DNA of 64,000 nt, from the NCBI GenBank assembly GCA_963723125.1, contig CAVRPQ010000004.1, positions 3,908-67,907 of the forward strand, in the 5' to 3' direction. The stretch comes from an uncultured bacterium (lineage in GTDB: Bacteria; Verrucomicrobiota; Verrucomicrobiia; Limisphaerales; UBA11358). Made by a program: the position numbers and the translations under genes. This document shows, piece by piece, positions 2,204 to 20,661 of the stretch. Every line of letters begins with the position of its first letter. Within the stretch, counting starts at the first letter, position 1. The notes beneath the pieces are model-generated. The model saw only the letters and a list, made by a program, of their open reading frames with translations, was not told the origin of the DNA and did no database searches.

Positions 2204-2621
2204 GGTAATAATCCATTACCTGAAAACAGCCGTTTGTCAAGGGTTTTTATGGGTTTATCTGCATAAAATGACACTTCATTTTGTGTAATGTTTACGCAAA
2301 ACCAGCGGTCTTTTCCGGCAGACTCTCCAATTGCAGATGAACAATAAGAAACATCGTAGAGCGACAATGCAAGTGGTGACGGTGATACACCACATCACGG
2401 GCAATTCCGATTAAATTACCGCATGAATAATTCCATGTTCATTTTGGATTCAGCCGGCCAACGGCGTGGGGAAAGCGGGGGACGCATTTCGTGTCCCAAC
2501 GACACCTTTGACGATTCGGCGTCGGGTAAAATGACAAAACGGTAAATGATAGCAGACAGGAACTTTAAAGCTGTGTGCGAAGCACGCAGAGCCTTTGGGA
2601 AGACTGATAAGATTGCGCCCT

Positions 2622-5351: not shown

Positions 5352-5694
5352 GCCGGGCCATAATCCCTGTTTTACCAGTGACATCAAAAGTGCCGCTCTG
5401 AACGTGTATGCAGACGACATGCACAATTACCTACTCCCTTATGCGCAAATTTTGTCTGCTGAAAGGATTTCCAATCCTGCGCTGGAACAGGAGCCAGATG
5501 CCCCGCCGGAAAAAATGTTGATCCGCTTTGCCCAGGCTGTTGTTGCGGTGCTGGGCAGTGGACTCGACGCTGTGGAGCGTGGCCTTCAACAATATGAATT
5601 GAAATTTGTGAAGTCGGCTCCACGACGTTTCGCCGGGTTGTTGAACACCCACATCGCCGCCGTCACCATCACTTTTACCAAGGAGAACGCATGA
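5311..5694 (+). CDS. hypothetical protein (127 aa), translationally coupled to the downstream HTH gene
   Basis: ATG-initiated ORF overlapping the relaxase 3' end. Its TGA stop overlaps the ATG of the next gene (ATGA at 5691-5694). No recognisable motif. Confidence 0.4.
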   Translation: MNTNEKPLTESAFRPGHNPCFTSDIKSAALNVYADDMHNYLLPYAQILSAERISNPALEQEPDAPPEKMLIRFAQAVVAVLGSGLDAVERGLQQYELKFVKSAPRRFAGLLNTHIAAVTITFTKENA

Positions 5695-5990
5695 ACCAAG
5701 AATCATCATTAAATCTACAGGCATTGGGAAAATATCCCGTCGTCATGACCAAGGAGAAAGTGGCCGAAGCGTTGGGCGTGGCCACGCATACCATTCCGCC
5801 ACTGGTGCGGTCGGGCCTGCTCAAGCCTCTCGGCCATCCGGGGCGTTATTGCGTGAAGCATTTTTCGCGTGACGCGCTCGCAGAGAAATTTGCCAGCCCA
5901 GAATGGCTCGATAAAGTGGCGGCGGCCATTCACCGGCACTGGCGCAACAAGAACGCGCGGAAGCGGGCGCGGCAGGCTCAAGCGGCGTGA
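5691..5990 (+). CDS. MGE-type helix-turn-helix DNA-binding protein (excisionase/AlpA-like), copy 1
   Basis: 99 aa. MTKEKVAEALGVATHTIPPLVRSGLLKPLG is HTH-like. It has a basic C-terminal tail and is paralogous to 14013..14324. Confidence 0.55.
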   Translation: MNQESSLNLQALGKYPVVMTKEKVAEALGVATHTIPPLVRSGLLKPLGHPGRYCVKHFSRDALAEKFASPEWLDKVAAAIHRHWRNKNARKRARQAQAA

Positions 5991-6084
5991 GCACGGGCGA
6001 GTCCGTTACGCAGATGCGACCGGCGGCACGGACACTGACGCGACTGGTTTTGACACGGCGCACTGGATTTTCTAGCCTCCGCGC

Positions 6085-6228
6085 ATGGTAAAAACGGTTA
6101 CTACGAATGAAACCGTTGTCGCTTCACGGGTGAAACCCTCCGCCTTCCTCGACAGTCACTACGTCAAGGTCATGCTCGACCAGATTATCGGGGAGAAAAA
6201 TTTCGTAAATGAAATTGTTTGGATTTGA
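6085..6228 (+). pseudogene. 47-codon fragment of an N6/N4 DNA methyltransferase (Mod/type IIS-like)
   Basis: My translation: MVKTVTTNETVVASRVKPSAFLDSHYVKVMLDQIIGEKNFVNEIVWI*. The ..HYhK.hLDeIhGEeNFvNEIhW.. segment is a conserved block of PF01555-type methyltransferases. All catalytic motifs are absent. Confidence 0.4.
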
Positions 6229-6255
6229 ATTGCAGCGCACATAAAAGGAAACAAA

Positions 6256-7638
6256 ATGAACACGATCAATGAACAACAGCGCAAACGGGCGATTGAAGTC
6301 ATGAATGAATATCTTTCTGCGCCTCCTGGGCCAGAAGGAAAAACTCCCGTAGAACTGAGCGAAGAACTTGATGCAAACCGAGTCAAGCTCATTGAGAAAG
6401 AATTAAAGCCACTCCTTGCCGATTACCTCGCGGGCAAGGTGATGCTTGCAGACTTCAAATCTAAAGCAGATGGAATAAACAAACGCAACGAGCTTTGGGG
6501 GTTCAAAGGAATCAAGGGCCAAATGTTCTTCAATATGGTGGTCAATGTTGCCGATGACGCAAAAGAATGTGACCAAGAACTAAAATCTGCATTGGCCGTT
6601 CCGACCAATGAACAAATCGCATCCAGCAGAATCAAAACATTCGCAAGCTACATCAAGCGGCTGGGAGAACAATGGGTTAGTGAAGGAAATACTCGATACG
6701 GTGCGCCAAAAGTGGGAAGCGTTCCTTTCTTCCTGTCTTATTTTTGGCAGATTCAGGATCGTGAAGTGTGGCCAGTTTATTACACCAACGCAGTGCAGAC
6801 GATGACCGATCTAAATATCTGGCAGCCATCAGACGACATTGCGGAGGATTATTTGGCGTTCAAGCAGATTCACGAAGTTCTGTCGAAGCTGTTCACCGAG
6901 ACAAGCAAGCGGCCTTTTGGACTTTATGATGTTGAACATGTCTTTTGGTTCAAGGGTGGCAATCCATACGACGCGGTCAAAGCAGAAGAGAAGGCGGCTG
7001 AACCTACACTGATCAAGCCTCCTATAAAACTTCCCATATCTGCCGACCAAGGCCATTTGCCCGAAAGCTACGTCCCACCGATTGTTGCCATCCTCCCAGC
7101 AATGGCCCGCCACGAAGAATGGCTGGTTGAGGCGGCGAAGCGTTCCGGCACGAGTCTTGAGAGAGCTTTTGAAAAAAACATTGATGCTGCGCTTACGATA
7201 TTAGGTTACGAAACTAAACTTTTGGGCCAAGGACAAGGACGCGTGCCAGATGGACGGGCTTTAGCTCTCGACGAGAACTATGCCATTTTGTGGGATGGGA
7301 AGGTTCGTGGAAACTCATACAGCTTGGGCACTGACGACCGGACGATCCGTGAATACATTACCACTCAAAGCCGCGAGTTGAGTCGCCGCTATCGAAATAT
7401 TTACTACATCATTGTTTCGAGCGCCTTCGCCGATGATTTTGACGACACAATTGCTTCGATCAAAATGGAAACAGAGGTAAGCGAAGTTATTTTACTCGAT
7501 GCAGAAGCGCTGGTGGCAATTGTGGAGGCAAAATTGCGTGCTCCGCTCCAGTTAACATTAGGGCCAGATGGCATCCAGCGTTTCTTTACAAAAAGTGGTG
7601 GCTTAACGGCAGCAATGGTTCGCGAGTATTTAGCTTAG
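6256..7638 (+). CDS. Protein with a C-terminal FokI-like PD-(D/E)XK cleavage domain and an uncharacterised ~300-aa N-terminal domain
   Basis: 460 aa. ERAFEKNIDAALTILGYETKLLGQGQGRVPDGRALALDENYAILWDGKVRGNSYSLGTDDRTIREYI parallels my memory of the FokI cleavage domain (FEMKVMEFF..YGYRGKHLGGSRKPDGAIY..VDTKAYSGGYNLPIGQADEMQRYV). The region is visibly AT-richer than the backbone. Confidence 0.55.
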   Translation: MNTINEQQRKRAIEVMNEYLSAPPGPEGKTPVELSEELDANRVKLIEKELKPLLADYLAGKVMLADFKSKADGINKRNELWGFKGIKGQMFFNMVVNVADDAKECDQELKSALAVPTNEQIASSRIKTFASYIKRLGEQWVSEGNTRYGAPKVGSVPFFLSYFWQIQDREVWPVYYTNAVQTMTDLNIWQPSDDIAEDYLAFKQIHEVLSKLFTETSKRPFGLYDVEHVFWFKGGNPYDAVKAEEKAAEPTLIKPPIKLPISADQGHLPESYVPPIVAILPAMARHEEWLVEAAKRSGTSLERAFEKNIDAALTILGYETKLLGQGQGRVPDGRALALDENYAILWDGKVRGNSYSLGTDDRTIREYITTQSRELSRRYRNIYYIIVSSAFADDFDDTIASIKMETEVSEVILLDAEALVAIVEAKLRAPLQLTLGPDGIQRFFTKSGGLTAAMVREYLA

Positions 7639-7653
7639 TTTACAATAGATATA

Positions 7654-8352
7654 ATGGCTGACCCAATTCCAATTTATCGCTATTTAGATTCTGATGCGGC
7701 ATTGAAAACACTTGTGGCCGGGAAGTTCAGAGTCGGGCTGTTATCCAAGTTCAATGATCCATTTGAGTGGAATCTCGGTTTTACTGGCGTGGCTACTCCG
7801 CCGGAGCAAGAATTTGCAAAGAATTACGCTAGCGAACATCATCGGTTTTTAGAGACATGGATGGGGATTTTAAGTTTCAGCAAGACAATTTCCGATCCAA
7901 CGCTCTGGTCGCTTTATGCTGATAAGCATTCAGGTGTTGCTTTTGAAGTGCAACATCCTTGGAATGACGACCATATTATAAAAATGGAATATCCACCGGA
8001 GCGTCCCGTTTTGGATTTTGTCCGACTGCGCAGTATCCATGACAAAAACGAAAGGGATAAATACCTTTTGTCACTTCTTAATGGTTTAATGAGGCAGAAA
8101 TCACCAAGTTGGTCTTTTGAGCAGGAATACAGATTGCAGATTGATCTAAATGACCAAGCGCATTGCTGCCAGTTAGCTGACGGTAGGCATCATTGGCAAA
8201 TTTATCGTGGATTGTTCAAACGGTTGATTCTTGGATTTCAATGCCCAATAGAAGAGGCAACAGCAAGAAAGTTGCTGGACATGAATGGATTTACCAGCAC
8301 GAATGTTGTGAGAGCCAAATTGTGTCAGGAGACTTATTCGGTTATTATTTAG
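7654..8352 (+). CDS. DUF2971-family protein
   Basis: 232 aa. The N-terminus IYRYLDSDAALKTLVAGKFRVGLLSKFNDPFEW matches the DUF2971 signature (YRY..l..l....l.fs....fNDPfE). It starts 16 nt after the previous stop, so the two are probably an operon. Confidence 0.7.
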   Translation: MADPIPIYRYLDSDAALKTLVAGKFRVGLLSKFNDPFEWNLGFTGVATPPEQEFAKNYASEHHRFLETWMGILSFSKTISDPTLWSLYADKHSGVAFEVQHPWNDDHIIKMEYPPERPVLDFVRLRSIHDKNERDKYLLSLLNGLMRQKSPSWSFEQEYRLQIDLNDQAHCCQLADGRHHWQIYRGLFKRLILGFQCPIEEATARKLLDMNGFTSTNVVRAKLCQETYSVII

Positions 8353-8501
8353 GTTCGCATGTTTTCCTCAACCATGACTGGCATTGCTATTTCGCCCATG
8401 CCTGTGCGTCATGGCCAAACGCCTGCGCGACGTTTGCGGTCTGCCGGAAAGCGAACCGCTCCGCGCTCCGCCCGCCCGTTTCAGAGGTCACGCTTCCCAT
8501 T

Positions 8502-8771
8502 TCAATCCATGCCATCATCCGGCGGGTGATATTCTTGGATGATGATTGTTGGTGGCGGTGGTGGTGTGTGCGGCTGAATGATAATGCCGATGCCGGCGCT
8601 GACGTGCGGTTGATTGGGGAATTTCCGGCGCAACCCGCCGCTGAATATCCAGGCCAGCAGAATCAGGGACAGCCAGACGAACGCGAGAAACAGATAAACT
8701 CCCCATTCCGAGATGATCCAATCGAGAAAATGGAACACCGGGTCGAGCACTGTGGCAGGATTCAAGTTCAT
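8502..8771 (-). CDS. small membrane protein with a proline-rich tail
   Basis: 89 aa with one clear hydrophobic span (GVYLFLAFVWLSLILLAWIF) and a PPPPP tract. It lies directly downstream of the integrase. Confidence 0.35.
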   Translation of the reverse strand: MNLNPATVLDPVFHFLDWIISEWGVYLFLAFVWLSLILLAWIFSGGLRRKFPNQPHVSAGIGIIIQPHTPPPPPTIIIQEYHPPDDGMD

Positions 8772-8785
8772 GTGATTTCCTCCGG

Positions 8786-9846
8786 TTATGCCTTGGCCAT
8801 CACTGGCTCAATGGTCTTGGACATTTCCGCGAACTTGGTGCGCATCCGTTCAAATTCGCTCAACGGCGGCAGTTCCACCTGCGCCTGCCGGGCATACGCG
8901 CGATGGATGGCTTTGCTGTTATGTCCCAGCGCCTCCTGCGCGAACCGTTCGGGATAACCCGCCTTTTTCGCGCGTTCCGCCCACGCATACCGATACGAAT
9001 GCAAGCTGACACCCTTGATGCCCAAGCCCGCGAGCGTTGGTGAAATTCCGTCGCCCGGTCGCCGGAACGAACCGAGCGCAGATACGGAAACAGCGGGCCG
9101 CTCCCCGGCAAATCCCGGAGAATTTCCGCCACTTCATCATCGAAGCGCATGATGGCAATCGAGCCGGTCTTTTTGCGCGCAAAACTGATGACGTTGTGTT
9201 CCCAATCAATGTTTTCAGCTTCGAGGCCCGCCAGATCGGACTGCGACGCGCCCAGGTGCCACGCCAGTTTATAGAACGCTTTGCGTTCGGGATTCAGTTC
9301 GCGGGTGACGATGGCCTGATGTTCCTCCCAGGTGATGGCGCGCTTGTCCTTGAACTCAACTTTCGGCCACTGCCGTTTTACGATGACCGGCCACGGCAGC
9401 CAGGTCATGTCCAGGGCGAAGTTGTGGATGCGCCGCAAATAAACATTGGTCGAAACTTTTCCGGTTTCGAGCACGCGCAAAAAGTTTTCCGGCCGCGTTT
9501 CCAAAACCGGCAGGTGACGAATCAAGTCAAACGCCTTGTCCTTGATGGCGGTCTGCCAGCGGTGCTGGGTCTCGCCTTTTTTGAGTTTGACCATTTCCTC
9601 CATGACGAACTGCCAGTTGCGGGTGGCAATCTGCGGGTCGCTGGCGGCGAGATAGGCGCGGGCGATTTGCAGGTTCACGGCGGGCTGCTGCTGCGCTTCG
9701 CCGCGCGAATGGAACAACCGCAGCGCCGTGGCGCGGTCGGTGGTGTGCAAGCTGTCCTGCTTGCCGGTCACGTCATCGTGAATGTAGTAGCGTCCGCCTT
9801 TTTTGCGGCGGTAGAGCCGGTATCGTTGTCTCATAACTGTATTCAC
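8786..9846 (-). pseudogene. Tyrosine recombinase/integrase with a frameshift near 9030-9045
   Basis: ORF 8860..9846 carries the N-terminal SAM-like and core-binding part. ORF 8786..9025, in another frame, carries the catalytic C-terminus (GVSLHSYRYAWAERA..ALGHNS..HRAY = H-x-x-R, H and Y motifs). Confidence 0.75.
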
Positions 9847-10148
9847 AGCGATGAGTTTACGACGATTGATCTCGACTCCGGCAGGGAGCAGGTGGGAGTT
9901 ACGCAGGGCAGGCCAGAGTTAAATCCTGCTGGCACTTCCGCTGGCACTCGTCTGTGGAAGTTGACCAAACCCTACAGTTCCAACTGGTTAGGTTTGGAGG
10001 CGAGGGTCGGAATCGGCCATTTATCCCCGCGTTTGCAGTTCAAATATGCCTGATTTCATTGGGAATTCAAGCATATTCTGTCACTACCCACCCATACCGT
10101 TTCTAACTCGTTTGGTGTCCGTTTTGGTGTCCGTTTGCGACTCCAGAT

Positions 10149-11714: not shown

Positions 11715-12313
11715 TGCAGGCCGAGCATAGGCCAAAATCGTTCCCGTGAAAATCAGATAGTTTTCCGCCCTAAACAACATCCTGAAATTGTTCGGAATTG
11801 CCGATGAGTTTTGAAGCCAGACATGCAGACTCCGAGCGTGTTTCCTAAGCGCGATCTGTTTTTGGCGAGGGGAGCGCAGTCAATGTGGAGGCGACGGGCG
11901 GCAGGGCGCACTACATTGACGGCGCGAGCGAGCCATATAATTGAAGCGCGAGGCACGCTCGGTGTGCGAATGCAAAAATCCAGCACGCTTTGCCAAAATT
12001 CCGCGATTGTTTCAAAATGGTAATCAACATAACCTCTCTGCGTTAGCAAAAAATCAAAACGACCAGAAAACATATTTAACAAAACTCATTTCGCGTAGCT
12101 TCGGCTGCTGTCCACTACGAAACTGGTAATTTCAACTTGGAAGACAGCGCTTGACGCACGCCCCGCTTGGGGCGTGCCGAAAGCGTTCTTCCAAGGGCAT
12201 ACCAGTGCCTGTAGTGGGACGTGATTAAGCACGTCCCTCTTGTTTTTAGGCACTCGTTCCCTTGGAGACAGTCAACCAGACAGGGCTGATTCGCACGCGA
12301 GCGAATTCAGCCC

Positions 12314-12720
12314 ATGCCTCATCTCTCATGGAATGAAGTCCGCGCCCGCGCCATCCGTTTTTCACGGAACTGGAGCGACGCCACTTCCGAGCGTGCCGAC
12401 AAGCAGACATTCTACAATGAATTCTTCGATGTCTTCGGCATACGCCGAGCGTCTGTCGCAGCATTCGAGACGAACGTCCGTAATCTACAAGGCTACACCA
12501 ACGCCATTGACTTGCTATGGCGTGGCAAGCTCATAGTCGAACACAAAATCCGCCGTTCATTGGCGCAAAATTCCAAAATGATGAACAACGTGCGGACATG
12601 GATTCCGTTGCGGACGATGTTGAAAATGGCGGTCTGCTTGATTACGTCACAGGCTGGTATTTTAAAGCTGCGGAATATATCCAAGGCACGCGCGTTGTGG
12701 TTGGTTTGGCACGTCAGCGG
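12314..12720 (+). pseudogene. Remnant of an MmeI/PglX-like N6-adenine DNA methyltransferase, internally deleted and truncated
   Basis: MPHLSWNEVRARAIRFSRNW..ERADKQTFYNEFFDVFGIRRASVAAFE..IDLLWRGKLIVEHK is the family N-terminus. After VEHK the sequence jumps, with a frame change, directly to NPPFIGAKFQNDEQRADM..LLDYVTGWYFKAAEYIQGTR (motif IV region) and then decays. Confidence 0.6.
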
Positions 12721-12803
12721 AGCAAGCCTGGCAAACGCTGCTGGTTAAAGTCGCATTGTATTTCCTGCGCGGGGAGTGTTACGTCGCTAAATCCGACACC
12801 ATC

Positions 12804-13673
12804 ATGCTCTGGCGTGAAAAAGACCGCCAGCGGGACAGACAACTGGCACAAGCCAGACCACCTCGCGGAATTCGCTGCGTCGCCTGTTTTTCCGACATGG
12901 TTTGTGAGGAGAAAAATTTGCACGACCGGGACGACGGTAGCGAACAAGTGCTTTTTTATTTTATTTGCCCCAAGTGTGATTCCCGGCGTGCTTTTTATGA
13001 AGACGGCACAGAATTCCGACGCAAAAAGGTTTTTTGCACGCAGTGTCAGAGTGAAGCCAAAATCGAATATCAGCGCGCCGGTAAAGAAATCAGCATCGTC
13101 ACGACGTGTCCGAAATGCGGCAAGGTTGAAACAGAATCCTTGACCGTAGAAAAGCCGCCGCCACTGGATGAAAATTATGCGGCTGACCGGGAGCGATTCT
13201 GCATGTCCCAGGAAGAAGGTCGGGAATATGACAGTTACCGGGTAAGTGCTGAAATTTTCCAGAGGCAACAGGCAGAACGGGATCTGCGCGAAAAGCGGCA
13301 GAACTTGTATGACGAGATTTCAAAACTAAAAAAACTCACGGCGATGGATTTGCAAAATCTCCTGATCCCGGCATTGGAAAGGGAAAGATTTATCCGGCTT
13401 GATCTCGGAATGCCGGCCATCAAACGGGATGTGCAGATGTCCTTTTGCGTTCAGGATGCCAAGTCGGGACGCAGTGATCACGACAGCATCAAAGATTTGA
13501 AAAATGCCATCGAGGAAACGCTTGACGGGACGAATTGGCGATTGATGAGCAGTGGCATCAGTTATCATTTGGGAGTTCTCAATGGATATTTGCGCGGGCT
13601 GGAAACAGAAAAAGACCTGTTGGCACTGGTGCGTATGCGCCTCAAAAAACAAGCCGGCTCGAATTTATCATAG
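12804..13673 (+). CDS. Double zinc-ribbon protein of unknown function
   Basis: Four CxxC pairs (CVAC, CPKC, CTQC, CPKC) followed by a helical C-terminal half. The start is uncertain: TTG at 12756 or ATG at 12804. Confidence 0.45.
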   Translation: MLWREKDRQRDRQLAQARPPRGIRCVACFSDMVCEEKNLHDRDDGSEQVLFYFICPKCDSRRAFYEDGTEFRRKKVFCTQCQSEAKIEYQRAGKEISIVTTCPKCGKVETESLTVEKPPPLDENYAADRERFCMSQEEGREYDSYRVSAEIFQRQQAERDLREKRQNLYDEISKLKKLTAMDLQNLLIPALERERFIRLDLGMPAIKRDVQMSFCVQDAKSGRSDHDSIKDLKNAIEETLDGTNWRLMSSGISYHLGVLNGYLRGLETEKDLLALVRMRLKKQAGSNLS

Positions 13674-14012
13674 TGTCGAGGACTTGATGGCTAGGCCAAA
13701 ATGCTTGGTTTCATTTTGTGTCCCAAGGACAACTTCATCGTTCCGAAATTTGCCAGAATGGGAGACGTGAATAACAAATTGAAAATCATTTGCGATTGAA
13801 AAGCGGAATTCATTTTGTTCAAAAATTGAACAATGCGGTTTCGGAAATGTGGGATAATGCGGTCATGAATTTTATTTTGTGTATGTGATACACCGCCCGC
13901 CCGCCGGGATTTTGGCACAGTGACAAAAGCTGTGGACTTCATTTTTGCAAAGTTTGCAAAAGCGGAGCCTGAATTTCCGCCAGAATATAAGCCGAAGAAC
14001 AAATTGAAAGTT

Positions 14013-14324
14013 ATGAGCAACGAATTCAAAGCCGTGTTGGACTTGGCAGCGTCGCTGCCAACGCGTGTGAATAAGGAAATGGCCGCTAAATATCTCGGCT
14101 TCAAAGGCGATGATATTACGATATTGATTGCGCGTGGACTCCTGAAGCCGTTGGGCCGCCCGGTGCAAAACAGCGACAAATACTTTGCCAAGGTGAAGCT
14201 TATTGAATTAGGACAAGATGCAGAATGGTTGTCACGGGCGACACTGGCTGTCAGCCAGCATTGGAAGGATAAGAACGCTCGTAAATCCAAAAAAACAAAT
14301 GGGGATGGGCAGCCAGTTGAATAA
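14013..14324 (+). CDS. MGE-type HTH DNA-binding protein, copy 2 (paralog of 5691..5990)
   Basis: LPTRVNKEMAAKYLGFKGDDITILIARGLLKPLGRP..WLSRATLAVSQHWKDKNARK aligns with copy 1 (..LLKPLGHP..WLDKVAAAIHRHWRNKNARK). The ATG at 14013 aligns with the start of the fragment at 19831. The stop lies 25 nt before CRISPR repeat 1. Confidence 0.55.
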   Translation: MSNEFKAVLDLAASLPTRVNKEMAAKYLGFKGDDITILIARGLLKPLGRPVQNSDKYFAKVKLIELGQDAEWLSRATLAVSQHWKDKNARKSKKTNGDGQPVE

Positions 14325-14349
14325 TGTGGGCGATTCGGCTGGCGCATCT

Positions 14350-15872
14350 TCGCCTCAAGATTGCCGCAGTCGCGGCGACTGCGGCGTGCTTGCTACGTCG
14401 AGTGTGAAGCCGAACTCACCCGCCTCAAGATTGCCGCAGTCGCGGCGACTGCGGCGGCGGTCACGCTCCGATTCCGGTCCAATGGCAAGCCGCCTCAAGA
14501 TTGCCGCAGTCGCGGCGACTGCGGCTAGCCCTTGAATCTGGTCGTGCCAAAGCCTTTCTCCCGCCTCAAGATTGCCGCAGTCGCGGCGACTGCGGCGATT
14601 TGCACGGCGTTTTTTAGGATTCGAGAATTTGCCCGCCTCAAGATTGCCGCAGTCGCGGCGACTGCGGCTGGTTTGCTGTTTTCATAAATCGTCGCCGCGC
14701 GTCCGCCTCAAGATTGCCGCAGTCGCGGCGACTGCGGCAAAAGTCACCCTCAAATAACAACAAACCATGTATGCCGCCTCAAGATTGCCGCAGTCGCGGC
14801 GACTGCGGCAAAGACCAGCTACGGGAGCAGGGCGTGGTGGTGACCCGCCTCAAGATTGCCGCAGTCGCGGCGACTGCGGCCGTTGGTTGGCATCAGCATT
14901 GACATCACCCAAGCCCCGCCTCAAGATTGCCGCAGTCGCGGCGACTGCGGCGTGATGTATGGAAGCTCCAACGTCGGCGAGATGTGTCCGCCTCAAGATT
15001 GCCGCAGTCGCGGCGACTGCGGCTGAATTGGCCGTTAGATTGAATCGTGTGATAAATCCGCCTCAAGATTGCCGCAGTCGCGGCGACTGCGGCCTCACCT
15101 CCCGCGATGCCATTGTGCCGGTGATTGACCGCCTCAAGATTGCCGCAGTCGCGGCGACTGCGGCTGAGCCACGGGCGACTAAAGATATGGAACTCACACC
15201 GCCTCAAGATTGCCGCAGTCGCGGCGACTGCGGCATCACGCCTTGCGCCATTTATCCCGGCCGCCGGCTCCGCCTCAAGATTGCCGCAGTCGCGGCGACT
15301 GCGGCAAGAATGGGACGGCGATGACGAAGGCGACCCGATTCCGCCTCAAGATTGCCGCAGTCGCGGCGACTGCGGCATCAACGGATGTTCGCGCCACTCG
15401 GCCTCGACCCCCGCCTCAAGATTGCCGCAGTCGCGGCGACTGCGGCATGCAGCGGCTCGTTTAGGGTATTCACAACAACCACCGCCTCAAGATTGCCGCA
15501 GTCGCGGCGACTGCGGCCAAAAGTACAATCTGGCAGCACAACGTCATTGGCTCCGCCTCAAGATTGCCGCAGTCGCGGCGACTGCGGCCGGCGCTAAATT
15601 GAAAGAGCGAAAATGGCAAGCTCCGCCTCAAGATTGCCGCAGTCGCGGCGACTGCGGCTTCTTTGTTTTTTATTTTTAATTCGTCGAGCGGACCCGCCTC
15701 AAGATTGCCGCAGTCGCGGCGACTGCGGCGGCGACATCGCCGATTTCTTCTCTGTCTCCTTTTGGCCGCCTCAAGATTGCCGCAGTCGCGGCGACTGCGG
15801 CGGAAATTTCGATCTGATTCGCACGACGGATTTTCTCCGCCTCAAGATTGCCGCAGTCGCGGCGACTGCGGC
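14350..15872 (-). CRISPR. CRISPR array: 22 x 36-bp repeats (CCGCCTCAAGATTGCCGCAGTCGCGGCGACTGCGGC on the + strand) and 21 unique spacers of 34-36 bp
   Basis: Repeat starts: 14350, 14420, 14490, 14561, 14633, 14703, 14774, 14845, 14916, 14988, 15058, 15129, 15199, 15270, 15341, 15411, 15482, 15553, 15623, 15694, 15766, 15837. All repeats are identical except that the outermost base of repeat 1 is T instead of C. That suggests a trailer at the left and a leader on the cas2 side, hence minus-strand transcription (inferred). Confidence 0.97.
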
Positions 15873-16191
15873 ACGCTCCCTGGAACACCTTGAGAATTAA
15901 CGCCTGCCGCAGCATTTTGCGAGCGTGAGGCAGGTTGGAGCATTAACACATAAATGAGTCGGGAAACAATCATTGCCAATAGCCTATCAATCCAAGCGAA
16001 TCTGTTGTGCGAGCGTCCGTGCAGGCCAGTGCCAGCATTTCCGCGCTCGCACTGTAATCGCCGCATTCAGGCGCAGTCGTCGCGATTTCAATGAGCAATC
16101 ATGGTTAGCCAATGGCGGAAGCTAACTGGTCGGTGGCGGAGTTCGCCGGGGTTTATTCAACGCCTTTCGGAAAAACTTGCAAGCTTGAAAA
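15873..16191 (-). other. CRISPR leader / candidate tracrRNA region between the array and cas2
   Basis: 319-bp non-coding gap. It holds a perfect 9-bp-stem hairpin GTGCGAGCG..CGCTCGCAC at 16007-16051 and repeat-like segments at 15888-15934 and 16069-16095. Confidence 0.35.
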
Positions 16192-16482
16192 TCAAATAAT
16201 CGTTACGCGCGAACGGACTTCGTAAGGCAATCCCATCGCGTCAATAATCAAACTCGCGTCTTTGGAACTCGCGCCCAGCGATACAAACAAAACCTGATCT
16301 TCGTCGTGATTGAGCAAGTCCTGAAGCTCGGCCTTTAATTTTGCCAGACGCAAATCATCCAGCGGACATTCAAAAACCGAGTATTGCAGTCGCACACCAA
16401 AACCTTCCAGCGAGCGCGCCACTTTTCGCAGCCGCTTCGGGTCGCTGATGTCGTAGCTCACCAGATAGCGGATGCGGCTCAT
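16192..16482 (-). CDS. cas2: CRISPR-associated endoribonuclease Cas2
   Basis: 96 aa: MSRIRYLVSYDISDPKRLRKVARSLEGFGVRLQYSVFECPL.. is a typical Cas2. Its ATG overlaps the cas4-cas1 TGA (ATGA at 16479-16482). The listed 218-aa ORF is an over-extension. Confidence 0.9.
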   Translation of the reverse strand: MSRIRYLVSYDISDPKRLRKVARSLEGFGVRLQYSVFECPLDDLRLAKLKAELQDLLNHDEDQVLFVSLGASSKDASLIIDAMGLPYEVRSRVTII

Positions 16483-18293
16483 CGTGTGACAAATCCGTGA
16501 TAGGTCAGCGCCTCGCCGCGCACGAACCGCCACAATTGCCTTGCCTGCACTTCGAGCATCCGGCGATACGCCATTTTGTAGCTGAATTCCGGGTGGCTGA
16601 CTTCCGTGTCCAGTCGTCGAAACCACCCTTCCCAAAATGGTCGCCGGCCTTTGTCGGTTAAAAACATTCCGTTCGCACTTTTGATGAAGTCCTCCGGGCC
16701 AAGTTCGCCACGATTGATGAGGCTGATGGCCACGCTGTCGGCGATGAGCGGGCGGAATTCCTCCATCAAATCCAGTGCCAGTGCCGGACGGCCATAGCGA
16801 GGCTGGTGCATGAATCCGAGAAACGGATCGAGTCCAACCGAATAACAAACGCCGGTCAATTCCTTCGCCAGCATGGAATAACCGAGCGAAAGCAGGGCGT
16901 TCACGGGATCACGCGGCGGACGGCGATTGCGCCCGCGCCAGTCAAATTTCCAGTCGTCACGCTGTTTCAGCATGGACTCGAATTGCTCGAAATAAAGCGC
17001 CGCGGCGCTGCCCTCGACGCCGAGCAACGCCGTCAAGTCGCGTGCCGATTCCGTGGAATCGCGGAAGTTCGCCATCAAGCTCGTCACCCGGTCCGGCACG
17101 TCGCCGTTGCGCATGAGCATCACGCGCTGATTATGGATTTTAGCGCGGATGACTTCCCGTGCGAGTTGCAGACGCACGCCCGGAAGTTCAAACAGCCGAT
17201 ATTGTCCGCGCCGCGCATCAACGCCGCTGGCTGGCAATCCGCCCAACATTCCGAGAAAACGTCCTGCCGGCGAAAAATAGGAAACGTCAATACCCAATTC
17301 CAGGCACGTCGAAACAGCCTGCGCCGTCATTTGAACCGCGCCGTAGCAATAAATTGCCCGCACCTGCTGGCCGGGCAGTTTACGCACATCTTCACCCTTC
17401 ACGCTGACGAGCAATTCATCTCCGCGCTGGCCGATTTGCGCGCCGGGTGTCTGCACCACCAACACCTCGCCATCGTCGCCTTCCGGTCGCGGCGGCTGCA
17501 ACGTCGGTTCCTTGTCCGTGGACTCGGCGGCAAAATCCAGTGCCTCAAGAATCCGGTCGCGGACGTCATCTTCGGATTGGGCGATGAAACTGAATTGAAT
17601 CTGTCCATCGGCGGGCGGCGCTTTACGCCGTTTCGACCACCAAAAAGATTCATTCGGAAGACATATCGGATAGGCGGAACAGCCGAGGCAGCGTGGATCG
17701 TTTTTAAGCGGGGGCGGGCAATGGCCGGAGGCGGCGAGCGCCTTTGCATCGGTAATGGCTTGCCGGGTTTTAGCCAACATTTCCTCATTGATTTCCACCG
17801 GCACACGGCGTTTGTCGGCGGCGTAGTAGATCACCGCGCCGGAAACCTTTACGCCGTGTTCCTGCAACAGCAGGGCATACGCGCCGACTTGCATTGTCTC
17901 CGGCTCGCGCGCTTCACGTTCGCCTTCGCTGTTGCGCCGGGCAGAACCCTTTTTGTAGTCCACAATTTGTGCGCCATCCGGCCCACCCTCCACCAAATCC
18001 ATTACACCAACAATGCCCAGCGATTCGCTTTCCAAGCGTAAGCTGCGAAGATGTGTTCCTTCCGGCAGATTTTCGCCCAAGGCTTTTGCCTTTTCTTCAT
18101 CCAGCCTGGACGGTGCGTCCACATTGCGATGCGTGGTTGAACCCGCAACCGTATCAGCGCTTTCCTGAAAAATGTTTTCAACCCACTGGAAATAAAACAG
18201 GCGAGGACAATAAACGTAATTGTTGAGACGACGCACCGGCATCACCGGCTGGGATTCCAGCCCGGCGTTGACTTGAATCGGCGCTTCGCTCAT
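16479..18293 (-). CDS. cas1: Cas4-Cas1 fusion protein (adaptation module typical of type V-B loci)
   Basis: 604 aa. The N-terminal Cas4 part has YCPRLFYF, the IVDYKKG RecB-nuclease motif and the CLGCSAYPIC Fe-S cysteines. The C-terminal Cas1 part has NALLSLGYSML..GLDPFLGFMHQPRYGRPALALDLMEEFRP. The reading frame is intact. Confidence 0.92.
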   Translation of the reverse strand: MSEAPIQVNAGLESQPVMPVRRLNNYVYCPRLFYFQWVENIFQESADTVAGSTTHRNVDAPSRLDEEKAKALGENLPEGTHLRSLRLESESLGIVGVMDLVEGGPDGAQIVDYKKGSARRNSEGEREAREPETMQVGAYALLLQEHGVKVSGAVIYYAADKRRVPVEINEEMLAKTRQAITDAKALAASGHCPPPLKNDPRCLGCSAYPICLPNESFWWSKRRKAPPADGQIQFSFIAQSEDDVRDRILEALDFAAESTDKEPTLQPPRPEGDDGEVLVVQTPGAQIGQRGDELLVSVKGEDVRKLPGQQVRAIYCYGAVQMTAQAVSTCLELGIDVSYFSPAGRFLGMLGGLPASGVDARRGQYRLFELPGVRLQLAREVIRAKIHNQRVMLMRNGDVPDRVTSLMANFRDSTESARDLTALLGVEGSAAALYFEQFESMLKQRDDWKFDWRGRNRRPPRDPVNALLSLGYSMLAKELTGVCYSVGLDPFLGFMHQPRYGRPALALDLMEEFRPLIADSVAISLINRGELGPEDFIKSANGMFLTDKGRRPFWEGWFRRLDTEVSHPEFSYKMAYRRMLEVQARQLWRFVRGEALTYHGFVTR

Positions 18294-18299
18294 GGCTCG

Positions 18300-19679
18300 T
18301 TACCTTTTCCATTCCTTGGGTGGCTCAATTCCCCATGCTTCTAAACGCGCAAGGTTGATGGCTTCACAGCGTTTCCAAGATTGATCTTTGACGTAACCCC
18401 AAAGTGCTTTGCCACTAACCAAATGCTTGGGTTTGGGACAGTCGGGCGGAGAATCATGCAATGTTGCTGCGCCCCAATGTGTGCCGTTGAGGTTTGCAAA
18501 GTCGGCGAAAAAATTGGGATGGCGACTGTCACTAGCTTTCAATTCTGCTTTGGCGTCTTCCAACTTGATTTCAATGCCTTCCCGGTCGGTTTTATCAGAA
18601 GGAACATCAGATTTTTTCTGTTCCTCTTTCGGTGGCGGGTATTTTCGCTTTTCCTTTTCGCTGACCCAAAAGCGATCCGGTTTGCTCTCAACTGGTGTTG
18701 CCTCCGACGGCTTTGCTGGTTGTTTTTTCCGTTTTTCCTTCTTGGTTTTTGGCTTTGGTGGCGAACCAAATTCCCGCTCGGAACGTAGGCGCGAATGGAT
18801 GCTCCAAACGCGTGCGTCGGCCACGGCGCGTAAGGCGAGGTTTACAGCAGCATTGACGTCAGAATGAATCAAGCGCGCTTGTTTCATCTGGTTTTCTTCC
18901 AGCGTCACACCGCAGAACTGGATGACCGGGCGCTGCTGTTTCGGATTCGCCGCGTCTTTGGCCGGGCGTTTGTAGGTCGCATCGAGATTGGCCATCGGGA
19001 CGAAGATGCTGCCTCCGGCCTCCGGCACAAGGAGTGTGTGAAACTTTTGACCCTTGGACTTTCCATCCCGGTTCTCGTTCGATTTGCGCACTTGTTCGAA
19101 AACAAGCTCCCATTGCTTAGACTTTTCCTCGCGCTTTTTCTTCTGTTCCGGCGTTTCCTTCGTTTCGTCCCCTGGCTTGCGGACTTTCCACTTCCACTTG
19201 GATTCAGACAGTGATTGTAACGAAAGCTCTGTTGCGCGGAAACCCGCCACACCCGTTCGGGAACAGAAGCGAGAGGAGTAAGCTGCCGGTGTTTCTACGA
19301 GCGGAATTCCAAACAGTTCGCACATCCCGCTCCCGTTAGCATCTTTGAGCTTATCTCGAATTGCCCGGTGACACCATTTCATCAGGCGGCTGTTTTCGCG
19401 CGGTGCGCGGCCTTGGGTGGTGCGATAGCGGCTCAAGTCTTCAATGACGATGAAATCCACGATGCCACGCCACTTGTTCCCTTTCTCCGCTTCCACAGGG
19501 TGTCCCTTGTCATCAATCTTCACATATTCCCCGTGACTGTCTTTAGCCTCGCGCATTGCGTGCTCCACGTCATCTTTGGGTTTGGCCTTTTCTTCCAGCC
19601 TCAAACCTAGCGCTTCGGCAAGAATCATGTGCGCAGTCTGGTTGCGCCGCTGTTCCTTTATGTCGTCGAGCTTGGCCAA
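18300..19679 (-). pseudogene. cas12b: Cas12b (C2c1)-like effector, C-terminal third only (RuvC-II, Nuc-like region, RuvC-III, C-terminal tail); 5' ~two-thirds of the gene absent
   Basis: DDIKEQRRNQTAHMILAEALG, FIVIEDLSRY (RuvC-II Glu), ENSRLMKWCHRAIRDKL, ETPAAYSSRFCSRTGVAGFRA and LIHSDVNAAVNLALRA (RuvC-III Asp) match my memory of AacCas12b (HAKEDRLKKLADRIIMEALG; LLEELSEY; ENNQLMQWSHRGV; MYAAFSSRFDARTGAPGIRC; HADLNAAQNL). There is no RuvC-I motif. The frame is closed by a stop at 19722-19724, the first start-like codon is TTG at 19679, and only ~200 bp separate it from rph. Confidence 0.75.
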
Positions 19680-19705
19680 AATCGTCGGGCATGGATCGGG
19701 AAAGT

Positions 19706-19831
19706 CATCAATACTTGAATGTCACTCACCGCGAAGCCGAGCAGCTTTGCTGTACCCGCGACATCCAGCCGTGCCGGCAAATGTCTTGCCGCCTATGTGG
19801 CCAGTACCGCTTGCGTCAGGGAGTCAGTCAT
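19706..19831 (-). pseudogene. Fragment (first ~42 codons, in-frame TAG at 19793-19795) of the MGE-type HTH gene, copy 3, abutting the cas12b truncation point
   Basis: My minus-strand translation MTDSLTQAVLAT*AARHLPARLDVAGTAKLLGFAVSDIQVLM aligns with copy 2 MSNEFKAVLDLAASLPTRVNKEMAAKYLGFKGDDITILI. Confidence 0.45.
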
Positions 19832-19923
19832 ATTCTGGTTTTTGGTCTCAGTTGCCAGCCGGGTCCATTTGCGTTGGTTTTGCTTTTCCTTGAAGCCGTT
19901 CGCGTCTAGTATCGCCAGCGTTT

Positions 19924-20661
19924 ATGGCAGAACCCACTCGCGCCGACGGGCGCACCGCAAAGGAACTTCGCCCGTTGCGCTTTCAAAACCACATCGCGCC
20001 GCATGCCGCCGGCTCCACGCTCATCGAATGGGGCAATACGCGCGTCATTTGCGGTGTGACCATCGAGGAAGTCGTGCCGCGCTGGATGAAGGAGCAAAAC
20101 GTCAAGGGCGGCTGGATCACCGCCGAGTATTCCATGCTCCCCTATTCCACCCTGGAACGCAAACCGCGCGACGCCAGCCGCGGAAAAATTGACGGGCGGG
20201 CACAGGAAATCCAGCGGCTCATTGGCCGCGCCCTGCGCGCGGTGATTGACCTGGAAAAACTCGGCGAACGCACGGTTTGGGTGGATTGCGACGTGCTCCA
20301 AGCCGACGGCGGCACGCGCACTGCCGCCATCACCGGCGCCTACGTGGCGTTGTGCATCGCCATCCGGCGATTGATTGCCTCCGGCAAGGTGACGGACAAT
20401 CCCATTCTCCATGCCGTCGCCGCCGCCAGCGTGGGCATCGTGAACAACCAGCCCTTGCTGGATCTTTGTTACACCGAGGACGTGGCGGCGGCCGTGGACA
20501 TGAACCTGGTGATGAATTCCGCCGGCGAATTCATTGAGCTTCAAGGCACGGGCGAGCAGGCCACCTTCACCGAGTCACAACTGGCCGATTTGCTCGCGCT
20601 TGGCAAGACCGGCATCCGTAAATTGCTCACCGCACAAGAGGAAGCGTTGGCAGCAGCCTGA
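19924..20661 (+). CDS. rph: Ribonuclease PH
   Basis: 245 aa: RADGRTAKELRPLRF..GSTLIEWGNTRVICGV..DCDVLQADGGTRTAAITGAYVAL. Confidence 0.93.
   Translation: MAEPTRADGRTAKELRPLRFQNHIAPHAAGSTLIEWGNTRVICGVTIEEVVPRWMKEQNVKGGWITAEYSMLPYSTLERKPRDASRGKIDGRAQEIQRLIGRALRAVIDLEKLGERTVWVDCDVLQADGGTRTAAITGAYVALCIAIRRLIASGKVTDNPILHAVAAASVGIVNNQPLLDLCYTEDVAAAVDMNLVMNSAGEFIELQGTGEQATFTESQLADLLALGKTGIRKLLTAQEEALAAA

What the first reader, a model, noticed from the sequence alone, without database searches (positions are those of the whole stretch)
14013..19831. CRISPR-Cas locus bracketed by inward-facing copies of an MGE HTH gene; one copy is fused to the cas12b breakpoint
Copy 2 (14013-14324, + strand) ends 25 nt before repeat 1. 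A 42-codon fragment (19831-19706, - strand, in-frame TAG at 19793-19795) aligns from its start codon with copy 2 (MSNEFKAVLDLAASLPTRVNKEMAAKYLGF.. versus MTDSLTQAVLAT*AARHLPARLDVAGTAKLLGF..). It runs straight into the truncated cas12b at ~19700-19720. Copy 1 sits in the putative IME (5691-5990). This is the footprint expected if a related mobile element inserted into cas12b and was then largely deleted together with the 5' part of the gene. Recombination between two element copies is another possibility. Either way it points to MGE-mediated inactivation of the effector.
Basis: partly seen in the sequence, partly recalled or inferred. Interest (0 to 1): 0.75.

Follow-up and report, generated by a model that had tools for sequence, protein, structure and literature searches.

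The report
Dead CRISPR locus with mosaic junction
A type V-B CRISPR-Cas locus in a Verrucomicrobial genome has lost about 70% of its cas12b effector gene to a deletion whose scar is a patchwork of a resident regulator-like gene and a mobile-element gene; this is ordinary decay of a defence island, not a mobile element that jumped into cas12b.

Summary
HTH copy 2 (14013-14324) stops 25 nt before CRISPR repeat 1. A 42-codon HTH-family remnant (19831-19706, minus strand, in-frame TAG) abuts a truncated cas12b, and copy 1 lies in an integrative mobilizable element (IME).

cas12b homology starts at 19709, equal to residue ~1222 of a 1720-aa relative. The first ~71%, including RuvC-I, is absent from the whole window.

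The remnant is a mosaic.
- Codons 1-22 and the 92-nt spacer to rph are orthologous to a full-length "HTHx" gene. That gene sits divergently next to rph in three related metagenome contigs. One of these contigs has no CRISPR and no IME between HTHx and DHHA1.
- Codons 23-42 are only 37-42% identical at nucleotide level to those orthologs. They match IME-type HTH genes better (57-63% nt, motif LGFAVxDI).

The best reading has two steps:
1. Recombination between HTH paralogs at the LPARL-coding stretch.
2. A GAT-microhomology deletion into cas12b.

Insertion of an element into cas12b is not supported. On the other flank, a second IME remnant (12706-~14345) is cut about 20 nt after copy 2, at the last repeat.

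cas4/cas1, cas2 and 22 repeats look intact, so the locus has no working effector. Interest is low to moderate.

The parts
2595..9993 (.). IME-1 (right part, runs off towards the window start). Contains TrwC relaxase 2595-3632, frameshifted SF1 helicase 3493-5351, orf127, HTH copy 1, cargo (460-aa ORF, DUF2971), an 89-aa membrane protein 8502-8771(-), and a frameshifted tyrosine integrase 8786-9846(-).
   Evidence: Pfam matches. 82% nt identity to the integrase end of the intact IME in L032. Absent from the 99.98%-identical contig L008, whose homology starts at window 9994.
5691..5990 (+). HTH copy 1 (99 aa), copy-1-like subfamily of the IME HTH family
   Evidence: Family HMM 201.8 bits. Weak HTH_17 match, 17.6 bits, below the cut-off.
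9994..10136 (.). Conserved ~142-nt non-coding sequence that serves as the attachment target of this IME family
   Evidence: 70-80% nt conserved in many Verrucomicrobiota loci. Its left 22 nt or its right ~25 nt recur exactly next to IME integrases. No tRNA or Rfam hit.
12314..12700 (+). Remnants of an MmeI-type restriction-modification gene
   Evidence: Pfam MmeI_N and a 50-residue piece of MmeI_Mtase, in two frames.
12706..14345 (+). IME-2 remnant: Zn-ribbon protein 12756-13673, HTH copy 2, and ~20 nt of the HTH-relaxase spacer. The relaxase, membrane protein, integrase and att end are missing.
   Evidence: Colinear with the left part of intact IMEs L016 and L018 (88% then 71% nt). Homology starts at 12706-12708 in both and continues ~20 nt past the stop codon. 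In those IMEs a TrwC relaxase follows the HTH.
14013..14324 (+). HTH copy 2 (103 aa; alternative GTG start at 13920)
   Evidence: Subfamily HMM 179 bits. AlphaFold model with pLDDT 79; weak MerR/excisionase-like fold matches.
14341..14350 (.). Junction J1: IME-2 spacer joined to the terminal (trailer-end) CRISPR repeat
   Evidence: Alignment with L016/L018 stops here. The first base of repeat 1 is T instead of C.
14350..15872 (-). CRISPR array: 22 repeats of 36 nt, 21 unique spacers of 34-36 nt
   Evidence: No spacer matches the window or any of the 100 related loci held at that point.
15873..16191 (-). Leader plus candidate tracrRNA region (16008-16190 conserved)
   Evidence: 79% nt conserved with L001 beyond cas2. 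A 14-nt anti-repeat-like match lies at 16085-16072. The tracrRNA assignment is inferred, not shown.
16192..16482 (-). cas2 (96 aa)
   Evidence: Pfam CRISPR_Cas2, 3.7e-21.
16479..18293 (-). cas4-cas1 fusion (604 aa), full length
   Evidence: Pfam Cas_Cas1 5.7e-88 covering 1-281/283, and Cas_Cas4 covering 5-159/160.
18300..19709 (-). cas12b 3' remnant (ORF 459 aa from TTG at 19679). Keeps the RuvC-II (IVIEDLS) and RuvC-III (HSDVNAAVN) regions. Lacks the REC/WED parts and RuvC-I.
   Evidence: Pfam C2c1_RuvC-like. Aligns to residues 1222-1704 of the 1720-aa L005 Cas12b. No other piece is present in the window.
19704..19712 (.). Junction J2b: HTH codon 42/43 joined to cas12b, sharing GAT(G)
   Evidence: DNA alignments A2 and A3. 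All cas12b alignments end at 19709.
19706..19765 (-). 20 codons of an IME-type HTH gene (DVAGTAKLLGFAVSDIQVLM)
   Evidence: 37-42% nt identity to the rph-linked HTHx orthologs, against 57-63% nt and 11/20 aa to IME HTH genes in L036, L038 and L034. HMM scores: 10.0 bits (IME-type) versus 1.0-2.9 bits (HTHx).
19766..19831 (-). Codons 1-22 of the resident rph-linked HTHx gene, with TGG>TAG at 19795-19793
   Evidence: 71-80% nt identity to HTHx in L115, L134 and L177. 19/22 aa identical to P0333/P0296. HMM scores: 20-28 bits (HTHx) versus <2 bits (IME-type). BLASTN colinearity with rph ends at 19767.
19832..19923 (.). rph-HTHx divergent intergenic region, part of the ancestral backbone
   Evidence: Aligns along its length with L115 and L134.
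19924..20661 (+). rph (RNase PH), the first core gene to the right of the island
   Evidence: Pfam RNase_PH. Synteny rph-His_Phos-prmA is kept in L115 and L134.

Best explanation
The region between a DHHA1-linked attachment sequence (9994-10136) and the rph-linked gene HTHx is an integration hot spot. In this lineage it holds a type V-B CRISPR-Cas locus and remnants of Verrucomicrobial integrative mobilizable elements. These elements carry an HTH gene, a TrwC/MOBF relaxase-helicase and a tyrosine integrase.

The CRISPR-Cas locus has been trimmed at both ends and has no working effector. On the cas12b side the scar has three parts:
1. The ancestral rph-HTHx spacer and HTHx codons 1-22.
2. 60 nt of an IME-type HTH paralog.
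3. cas12b from codon ~1222.

I infer two steps. First, recombination between the resident HTHx and a co-oriented IME-borne HTH gene, within the conserved LPARL-coding stretch. The donor most likely belonged to an element that lay between HTHx and cas12b. Second, an illegitimate deletion at GAT(G) microhomology. It removed the rest of that HTH gene, whatever followed it, the cas12b promoter and ~3.7 kb of cas12b (REC, WED and RuvC-I).

On the array side, a separate deletion removed the relaxase-integrase half of a second IME and joined its HTH-relaxase spacer to the last repeat.

What remains is cas4/cas1, cas2, leader and array. It could at most acquire spacers; it cannot interfere. It now lies directly downstream of the HTHx promoter region.

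Shown: the truncation, both junction positions, the mosaic ancestry, and the synteny. Inferred: the order and number of events, the former presence of a third IME, and any residual expression.
For: Truncation.
- cas12b homology begins at 19709 in all relatives, equal to residue 1222 of 1720.
- The RuvC-I motif SIDLGQKQAG lies upstream of that point in L005.
- Nothing else in the 64 kb matches the N-terminal part.
- The same junction is present at 99.9-100% identity in five other contigs: L003, L004 (= L011), L009, L012 and L013. L010 starts inside the cas12b remnant and does not reach J2. These come from MAG, metagenome and Logan assemblies, so it is not an assembly artefact.

Ancestral position of half A.
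- L115, L134 and L177 have rph divergently adjacent to full-length HTHx. RNase PH is 80-87% aa identical to the window's.
- BLASTN runs continuously from rph into HTHx at ~78% and ends at window 19767 in both L115 and L134.
- L115 continues HTHx - LRR protein - toxin/antitoxin pair - DHHA1, with no CRISPR and no IME.
- L008 shows DHHA1 directly left of window 9994.

Mosaic.
- Window versus the orthologs: 71-80% nt in codons 1-22, dropping to 37-42% in codons 23-42. The orthologs are 72-82% identical to each other in that second part.
- Among 226 HTHx-type sequences none exceeds 8/20 identities in half B. IME-type genes reach 11/20 there but only 5-8/22 in half A.
- HMM log-odds favour IME-type by 7-9 bits in half B and HTHx by about 18-30 bits in half A.

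The HTH family belongs to mobile elements.
- In 81 genome loci the gene nearly always lies 0.05-4.5 kb from a tyrosine integrase.
- In the copy-2-like subfamily it is directly followed by a TrwC relaxase.

IME-2 remnant and J1.

Junction microhomology.
Against: - Half B is only 60 nt, and its best sampled relative is 63% nt identical. The donor has not been found, and the log-odds (7-9 bits) are moderate.
- A third IME between HTHx and cas12b would need an attachment site there and the opposite orientation to IME-1 and IME-2. No att-like sequence was found at either junction.
- Ectopic gene conversion or a single template-switching event could give the same mosaic without an adjacent element.
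- No close relative with an intact cas12b in this context was recovered, so the pre-deletion state is inferred.
- J1 falls exactly at a repeat edge, which a random deletion endpoint would hit only occasionally.
Confidence: 0.72

Rival explanations
1. First reader's model. A related mobile element inserted into cas12b. Later the element and the 5' part of the gene were largely deleted, leaving the element's HTH start as a footprint.
For: The 20 codons that touch the cas12b breakpoint are IME-type. IMEs of this family are abundant around the locus.
Against: - The fragment's start codon, its first 22 codons and the upstream spacer are the resident rph neighbour, conserved in synteny in L115, L134 and L177.
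- No 5' cas12b sequence remains.
- The join lies inside an HTH reading frame, not at an element end, so it is a deletion junction whether or not an insertion occurred.
- This model needs more steps than a deletion from outside the gene.
Confidence: 0.07
2. No third element was ever adjacent. The IME-type 60 nt entered the resident HTHx by ectopic gene conversion, or by template switching during replication, from an IME HTH copy elsewhere in the genome. A simple deletion then ran from HTHx codon 43 into cas12b.
For: - It needs no attachment site or particular orientation next to cas12b, and none was found.
- These genomes carry several HTH paralogs each.
- The switch point lies in the most conserved nucleotide stretch, the one encoding LPARL.
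Against: Conversion between sequences only ~40-75% identical is inefficient. The second conversion boundary is lost in the deletion, so this cannot be tested here. No donor copy has been sampled: the window's own copies are only 5-8/20 identical in half B by my hand count, and copy 2 is 52% nt identical there.
Confidence: 0.17
3. Half B is simply a decayed HTHx. After the gene was broken (TAG, truncation) it drifted, and the resemblance to IME-type HTH genes is coincidence.
For: The gene is a pseudogene (in-frame TAG, truncated). The segment is short. All subfamilies share the same fold and some residues.
Against: - Drift would hit both halves, yet half A is still 71-80% nt identical to the orthologs and half B only 37-42%.
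- The deviations from HTHx-invariant positions coincide with IME-type consensus residues: T27, G32, F33 and I38.
- The cas12b remnant next to it has no stop or frameshift over 1.4 kb, which argues against long neutral decay.
Confidence: 0.04

Closest known systems
Type V-B (Cas12b/C2c1) CRISPR-Cas loci
   Same: Gene order cas12b - cas4/cas1 fusion - cas2 - array. 36-nt repeats with a palindromic core. A C2c1 RuvC-like domain. A conserved non-coding stretch between cas2 and the array where a tracrRNA could lie.
   Different: The effector keeps only the last ~28% of its length and lacks RuvC-I, so the locus cannot carry out interference. The relatives' full-length gene is unusually long, 1720 codons in L005.
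Decayed or effector-less CRISPR-Cas loci, and loss of cas genes by deletion under conflict with integrated mobile elements (e.g. Vercoe et al. 2013, PMC3630108; P. aeruginosa lysogens, PMC11406979)
   Same: The interference gene is lost by deletion while the array and other genes remain. The locus sits in a mobile-element-rich island. The junction shows short microhomology.
   Different: No self-targeting spacer was found to explain selection for loss. The scar includes a recombinant between a resident gene and a mobile-element paralog, which those studies do not describe (from my reading of the titles and abstracts only).
Integrative mobilizable elements with a MOBF (TrwC-type) relaxase and a tyrosine integrase, targeting a conserved site and accreting in tandem
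   Same: The compact module HTH - TrwC relaxase/helicase - small membrane protein - integrase. Short exact direct repeats of the target next to the integrase. Presence/absence polymorphism between near-identical strains.
   Different: The target is a ~142-nt conserved non-coding sequence with no tRNA, tmRNA or Rfam match. The HTH family has no Pfam model, and in these searches it was found almost only in Verrucomicrobiota.
Excisionase / MerR-superfamily winged-helix proteins (Pfam HTH_17; RdfS, mycobacteriophage Pukovnik Xis)
   Same: Small size, an N-terminal helix-turn-helix with a wing, and tight linkage to a tyrosine integrase.
   Different: Sequence and fold matches are all below significance: HTH_17 at 17.6 bits against a cut-off of 27, and Foldseek E >= 0.025. 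There is an extra long C-terminal helix with the motif HW(K/R)xKNARK. No function has been tested.

Membership tests
Type V-B CRISPR-Cas | Cas12b effector with a complete split RuvC domain (motifs I, II, III) | tested here: not met
   The C2c1_RuvC-like match covers only profile positions 35-125. The ORF aligns to residues 1222-1704 of 1720. The RuvC-I motif (SIDLGQKQAG in L005) lies upstream of the breakpoint and is absent from the window.
Type V-B CRISPR-Cas | Adaptation module with a cas4-cas1 fusion plus cas2 | tested here: met
   A 604-aa protein with full-length Cas4 and Cas1 domains, and a 96-aa Cas2.
Type V-B CRISPR-Cas | CRISPR array next to the cas genes | tested here: met
   22 repeats of 36 nt and 21 unique spacers of 34-36 nt, 319 nt from cas2.
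Type V-B CRISPR-Cas | tracrRNA with an anti-repeat | tested here: inconclusive
   Only a 14-nt 93% match at 16085-16072, inside a stretch conserved with L001. No Rfam hit.
IME (MOBF relaxase + tyrosine integrase), applied to IME-1 with copy 1 | Relaxase and integrase within one bounded element, with evidence of mobility | tested here: met
   TrwC 3.6e-78. Integrase 82% nt identical to the intact L032 integrase. The element is absent from the 99.98%-identical L008. Both the helicase and the integrase carry frameshifts in this assembly. The left end lies outside the window.
IME, applied to the sequence around copy 2 (IME-2) | Relaxase and integrase present | tested here: not met
   Only the Zn-ribbon gene, the HTH gene and ~20 nt of spacer remain. 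The array starts where L016 and L018 have the relaxase. It is a remnant, not an element.
HTHx subfamily (rph-linked), applied to the fragment 19831-19706 | Sequence match over the whole preserved length, and synteny with rph | tested here: inconclusive
   Codons 1-22 and the synteny are met. Codons 23-42 are not met: 1.0-2.9 bits, 6/20 identities. The result is a mosaic.
Excisionase / HTH_17 (MerR-like winged helix) | Significant sequence or fold match to HTH_17 or solved excisionases | tested here: inconclusive
   Copy 1: HTH_17 at 17.6 bits, cut-off 27. Copy 2 and the HTHx consensus: no Pfam hit. Foldseek best E=0.025; RdfS and Pukovnik Xis appear among the top hits with probability 0.9-0.96 but TM about 0.4.
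Excisionase / recombination directionality factor | Promotes integrase-mediated excision | not testable with these tools
   Only genomic linkage to integrases is available.

The most novel reading that the evidence does not exclude
Resident and element-borne members of this HTH family may act as recombination landing pads. They would let Verrucomicrobial IMEs recombine into the chromosome outside their att site and repeatedly prune neighbouring defence genes, giving a recurrent element-driven route to loss of the Cas12b effector while the adaptation genes survive.

Hints:
- The mosaic junction described here.
- A truncated MmeI gene abutting the other IME remnant.
- The independently damaged cas12b genes in the three relative loci examined: L001 and L002, two near-identical MAG contigs with the same internal deletion, and L005 with a nonsense codon.
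Probability: 0.08. Interest if true: 0.6.

Novelty: new member of a known kind. Interest (0 to 1): 0.3.

Why it matters
The case is a well-resolved, base-level example of how a CRISPR effector is lost in nature. It shows a deletion scar that records both recombination between paralogs and a microhomology join, inside an integration hot spot.

For annotation, this locus should not be counted as a functional V-B system, and its 459-aa ORF should not be mistaken for a compact Cas12.

The by-products may be more useful than the finding itself:
- A compact, widespread Verrucomicrobial IME family.
- Its uncharacterised HTH gene family.
- Its ~142-nt attachment target.

None of this challenges current understanding.

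Tried and rejected
- **Self-targeting as the reason for effector loss.** None of the 21 spacers matches the window outside the array, or the 100 related loci (1.5 Mb) held at that point, beyond chance 11-15-mers.
- **A relocated 5' half of cas12b.** tBLASTN with the 1720-aa L005 protein and four other relatives finds nothing else in the window.
- **Recombination between copy 2 and the fragment.** They are inverted, and only 52% nt identical over the fragment's last 20 codons (alignment). No longer nucleotide repeats flank the locus.
- **An att site at J1 or J2.** The 9940-10150 probe finds no second copy in the window.
- **A relative with intact cas12b next to rph.** Exact-protein look-ups of the Cas12b remnant and of RNase PH returned only the same strain-level population, 99.9-100% identical. 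The closest homologous loci (L001, L002, L005) lie in unrelated genomic contexts.
- **Nature of the 142-nt att target.** No tRNA or tmRNA. No Rfam family at gathering or E<=1 thresholds, apart from a spurious miRNA hit. The fold z-score is only -1.8.
- **Promoter and terminator scan of 13600-20000.** Fewer promoter-like sites than in shuffles, so uninformative.
- **Structure of copy 2.** A usable model (pLDDT 79), but no PDB match with E<0.001.
- **First broad family HMM.** It gave the fragment only E=0.048, because it was dominated by copy-1-like sequences. Subfamily models resolved this.
- **Literature.** A search for Cas12b, Verrucomicrobia and truncated found nothing.

Full report
**What is in the sequence**

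The window holds a type V-B CRISPR-Cas locus on the minus strand.
- A 22-repeat array (14350-15872) with 36-nt repeats and 21 unique spacers of 34-36 nt.
- A 319-nt leader region.
- cas2 (16192-16482).
- A full-length cas4-cas1 fusion (16479-18293).
- An ORF of 459 codons (18300-19679) that matches Pfam C2c1_RuvC-like.

To the left of the array lies HTH copy 2 (14013-14324, + strand). Its stop codon is 25 nt from repeat 1. To the right of the cas12b ORF, the minus strand reads MTDSLTQAVLAT*AARHLPARLDVAGTAKLLGFAVSDIQVLM (19831-19706). The core gene rph starts 92 nt further on (19924).

**Is cas12b really truncated?**

Yes. BLASTN and tBLASTN against five relatives all begin at window 19709. The best full-length comparator is L005, with 1720 codons read through one in-frame stop. 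It aligns only from residue 1222. Its RuvC-I motif (SIDLGQKQAG) lies far upstream of that point. Nothing else in the 64 kb matches the missing 71%.

The remnant keeps the RuvC-II and RuvC-III regions (IVIEDLS, HSDVNAAVN) but cannot form a nuclease site. That last statement rests on established knowledge of Cas12 RuvC catalysis.

The same junction occurs at 99.9-100% identity in five other contigs from MAG, metagenome and Logan assemblies (L003, L004 = L011, L009, L012, L013), so it is real and fixed in this population.

**Is the fragment really HTH-family sequence?**

Yes.
- Pairwise BLASTP to copy 2 gives E=1e-5.
- A copy-2-like subfamily HMM, scanned over every six-frame segment of the window, gives 21.5 bits (E=2e-5). 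The next-best hit outside the two known HTH genes scores 6.0 bits.
- Shuffled controls never exceed 7.1 bits, against 19.4 observed.
- A by-catch in locus L032 revealed a third, much larger subfamily, which I call HTHx (887 database clusters). Its consensus starts MTDDLTQAAMTTWAAKDLPARL.
- With TAG read as W (TGG>TAG), the fragment scores 40.3 bits against the HTHx model, starting from position 1.

**What the HTH family is**

It is a ~100-aa family with no Pfam model. The hits that carry an organism name are almost all Verrucomicrobiota (a few records carry other MAG labels).

In 81 genome loci the gene lies almost always 0.05-4.5 kb from a tyrosine integrase on the opposite strand. In the copy-2-like subfamily it is followed directly by a TrwC relaxase-helicase, a small membrane protein and the integrase. 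Together these form a compact 5-6 kb integrative mobilizable element.

Copy 1 sits in such an element. That element is absent from the 99.98%-identical contig L008.

Copy 2 and the Zn-ribbon gene before it are colinear with the left part of intact elements in L016 and L018. That homology starts at 12706 and continues ~20 nt past the stop codon. The last CRISPR repeat then replaces the relaxase. The sequence around copy 2 is therefore an element remnant, cut at junction J1.

An AlphaFold model of copy 2 (pLDDT 79) resembles MerR/excisionase winged helices only weakly. An excisionase-like role is a reasonable inference from the linkage to integrases, but it is not shown.

**The decisive result: synteny**

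Three HTHx loci from metagenomes (L115, L134, L177) carry rph divergently next to a full-length HTHx gene, with RNase PH 80-87% identical to the window's. In L115 and L134, His_Phos and prmA follow as in the window.

BLASTN runs without a break from rph into HTHx at ~78% identity. In both L115 and L134 it stops at window 19767. The 92-nt spacer aligns along its length.

The start of the fragment is therefore the resident neighbour of rph at its ancestral position. It is not the end of an element that entered cas12b.

L115 continues HTHx - LRR protein - toxin/antitoxin pair - DHHA1, with no CRISPR and no IME. L008 places DHHA1 immediately left of window 9994. Everything from about 10136 to 19766 is thus island DNA in a hot spot between the DHHA1-linked attachment sequence and HTHx.

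**The fragment is a mosaic**

| Comparison | Codons 1-22 | Codons 23-42 |
|---|---|---|
| Window vs rph-linked orthologs (nt identity) | 71-80% | 37-42% |
| Orthologs vs each other (nt identity) | 73-86% | 72-82% |
| Window vs IME-type HTH genes L036, L034, L038 | 5-6 of 22 aa | 57-63% nt; 10-11 of 20 aa |
| HTHx HMM score | 20-28 bits | 1.0-2.9 bits |
| IME-type HMM score | below 2 bits | 10.0 bits |

Further points:
- Among 226 HTHx-type sequences, none exceeds 8/20 identities in the second half.
- The second half shares the motif LGFAVxDI with IME-type genes.
- Its deviations from HTHx-invariant columns (V27, N32, C33, V38) are exactly the IME-type residues T, G, F and I.
- The switch lies in the LPARL-coding stretch, the best-conserved nucleotides across the subfamilies.

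This is the signature of recombination between paralogs. Neutral decay does not fit, because it would have affected both halves.

**The join to cas12b (J2b)**

The HTH frame reads ...GTA TTG ATG and the cas12b frame reads GAT GAC TTT CCC GAT CCA. The two share GAT(G). Because the join lies inside an HTH reading frame, it is an illegitimate deletion junction in any scenario.

**Most likely history**

This part is inferred.
1. A co-oriented IME-type HTH gene, probably part of an element lying between HTHx and the cas operon, recombined with HTHx at the LPARL stretch.
2. A microhomology-mediated deletion then removed the rest of that gene, whatever followed it, the cas12b promoter and the first ~3.7 kb of cas12b.
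3. A separate deletion produced J1 on the array side.

An ectopic gene-conversion or template-switch origin of the 60 nt cannot be excluded. No att-like sequence was found near either junction.

Insertion of an element into cas12b is not needed, and the synteny argues against it.

No spacer targets the window or the related loci held at that point. A self-targeting rationale for the loss therefore has no support here, although the rest of the genome could not be searched.

**Function now**

The locus cannot interfere. cas4/cas1 and cas2 look intact and now lie downstream of the HTHx promoter region. Spacer acquisition or array transcription might persist, but that is speculation.

**Comparison with what is known, and novelty**

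Loss of CRISPR interference genes by deletion in islands rich in mobile elements is well documented, for example in PMC3630108 and PMC11406979 (found). Decayed loci with orphan adaptation modules are common; that statement rests on my own knowledge.

This is a new, well-resolved instance, with an unusual three-part scar. The IME family, its HTH genes and its 142-nt attachment target are by-products that may deserve description. I score interest at 0.3.

Noticed in passing
window 9994-10136: A ~142-nt non-coding sequence, 70-80% conserved across many Verrucomicrobiota genomes. Its left 22 nt or its right ~25 nt recur exactly beside IME integrases in other loci, so it appears to be the attachment target of the IME family. 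It is not a tRNA, a tmRNA or any Rfam family.
   Followed up: partly
window <=2595-9993 versus L008 1-4202: The element carrying copy 1 is missing from a 99.98%-identical MAG contig. That contig has AspRS and DHHA1 directly left of window 9994, giving a presence/absence polymorphism. In this assembly the element's helicase and integrase carry frameshifts.
   Followed up: partly
L005 7121-12286; L001 233-3171; L002 2-2841: The closest cas12b relatives examined are also damaged. L005 has an in-frame TAA replacing the P of the conserved LPGED motif. L001 and L002 join the first ~245 codons, out of frame, to residue ~945, which deletes RuvC-I. Their cas4/cas1 and cas2 genes are called as full-length ORFs with the expected Pfam domains.
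   Followed up: partly
window 12314-12700: Fragments of an MmeI-type restriction-modification gene (the N-terminal domain and a 50-residue methyltransferase piece). They end 6 nt before the left boundary of the IME-2 remnant at 12706, so a second defence gene is truncated next to an element remnant.
   Followed up: no
window 16008-16190: About 185 nt downstream of cas2 are conserved with L001 at 79% and contain a 14-nt anti-repeat-like match (16085-16072). This is a candidate tracrRNA.
   Followed up: no
window 60775-63654: At least five tandem copies of a 645-nt unit at 97-98% identity, presumably 215-aa repeats in a large protein. Tandem Repeats Finder missed it because the period exceeds 500.
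   Followed up: partly
window 13769-13789 and 13994-14014: A 21-nt motif GAA(T/G)AACAAATTGAAA(A/G)T(C/T)AT occurs twice, 225 nt apart, upstream of and overlapping the start of HTH copy 2. It could be a binding site or a partial duplication.
   Followed up: no
window 10387-10433: A 12-nt unit ACTTGGCCGGTG repeated about four times, inside the AlbA_2/HATPase_c_4/Fic-like_C gene. It encodes (TGQV)n.
   Followed up: no
L102-L180 (HTHx loci): The HTHx subfamily is very large: 887 clusters, mostly above 70% identical. In 21 of 54 loci with enough flank it lies within 3 kb of a putative rolling-circle (HUH-motif) Rep gene and/or a tyrosine integrase. A related, smaller upstream Rep-like ORF matches Pfam REP_ORF2-G2P; the main 216-aa type has no Pfam hit. 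The genes downstream of HTHx are highly variable, often giant surface repeat proteins.
   Followed up: partly
L115 5094-6538: The 3' end of DHHA1 is duplicated (5094-5238 and 6174 onwards) and flanks a GNAT / DUF1778-like toxin-antitoxin pair. This looks like another small insertion at the same hot spot in a relative.
   Followed up: no
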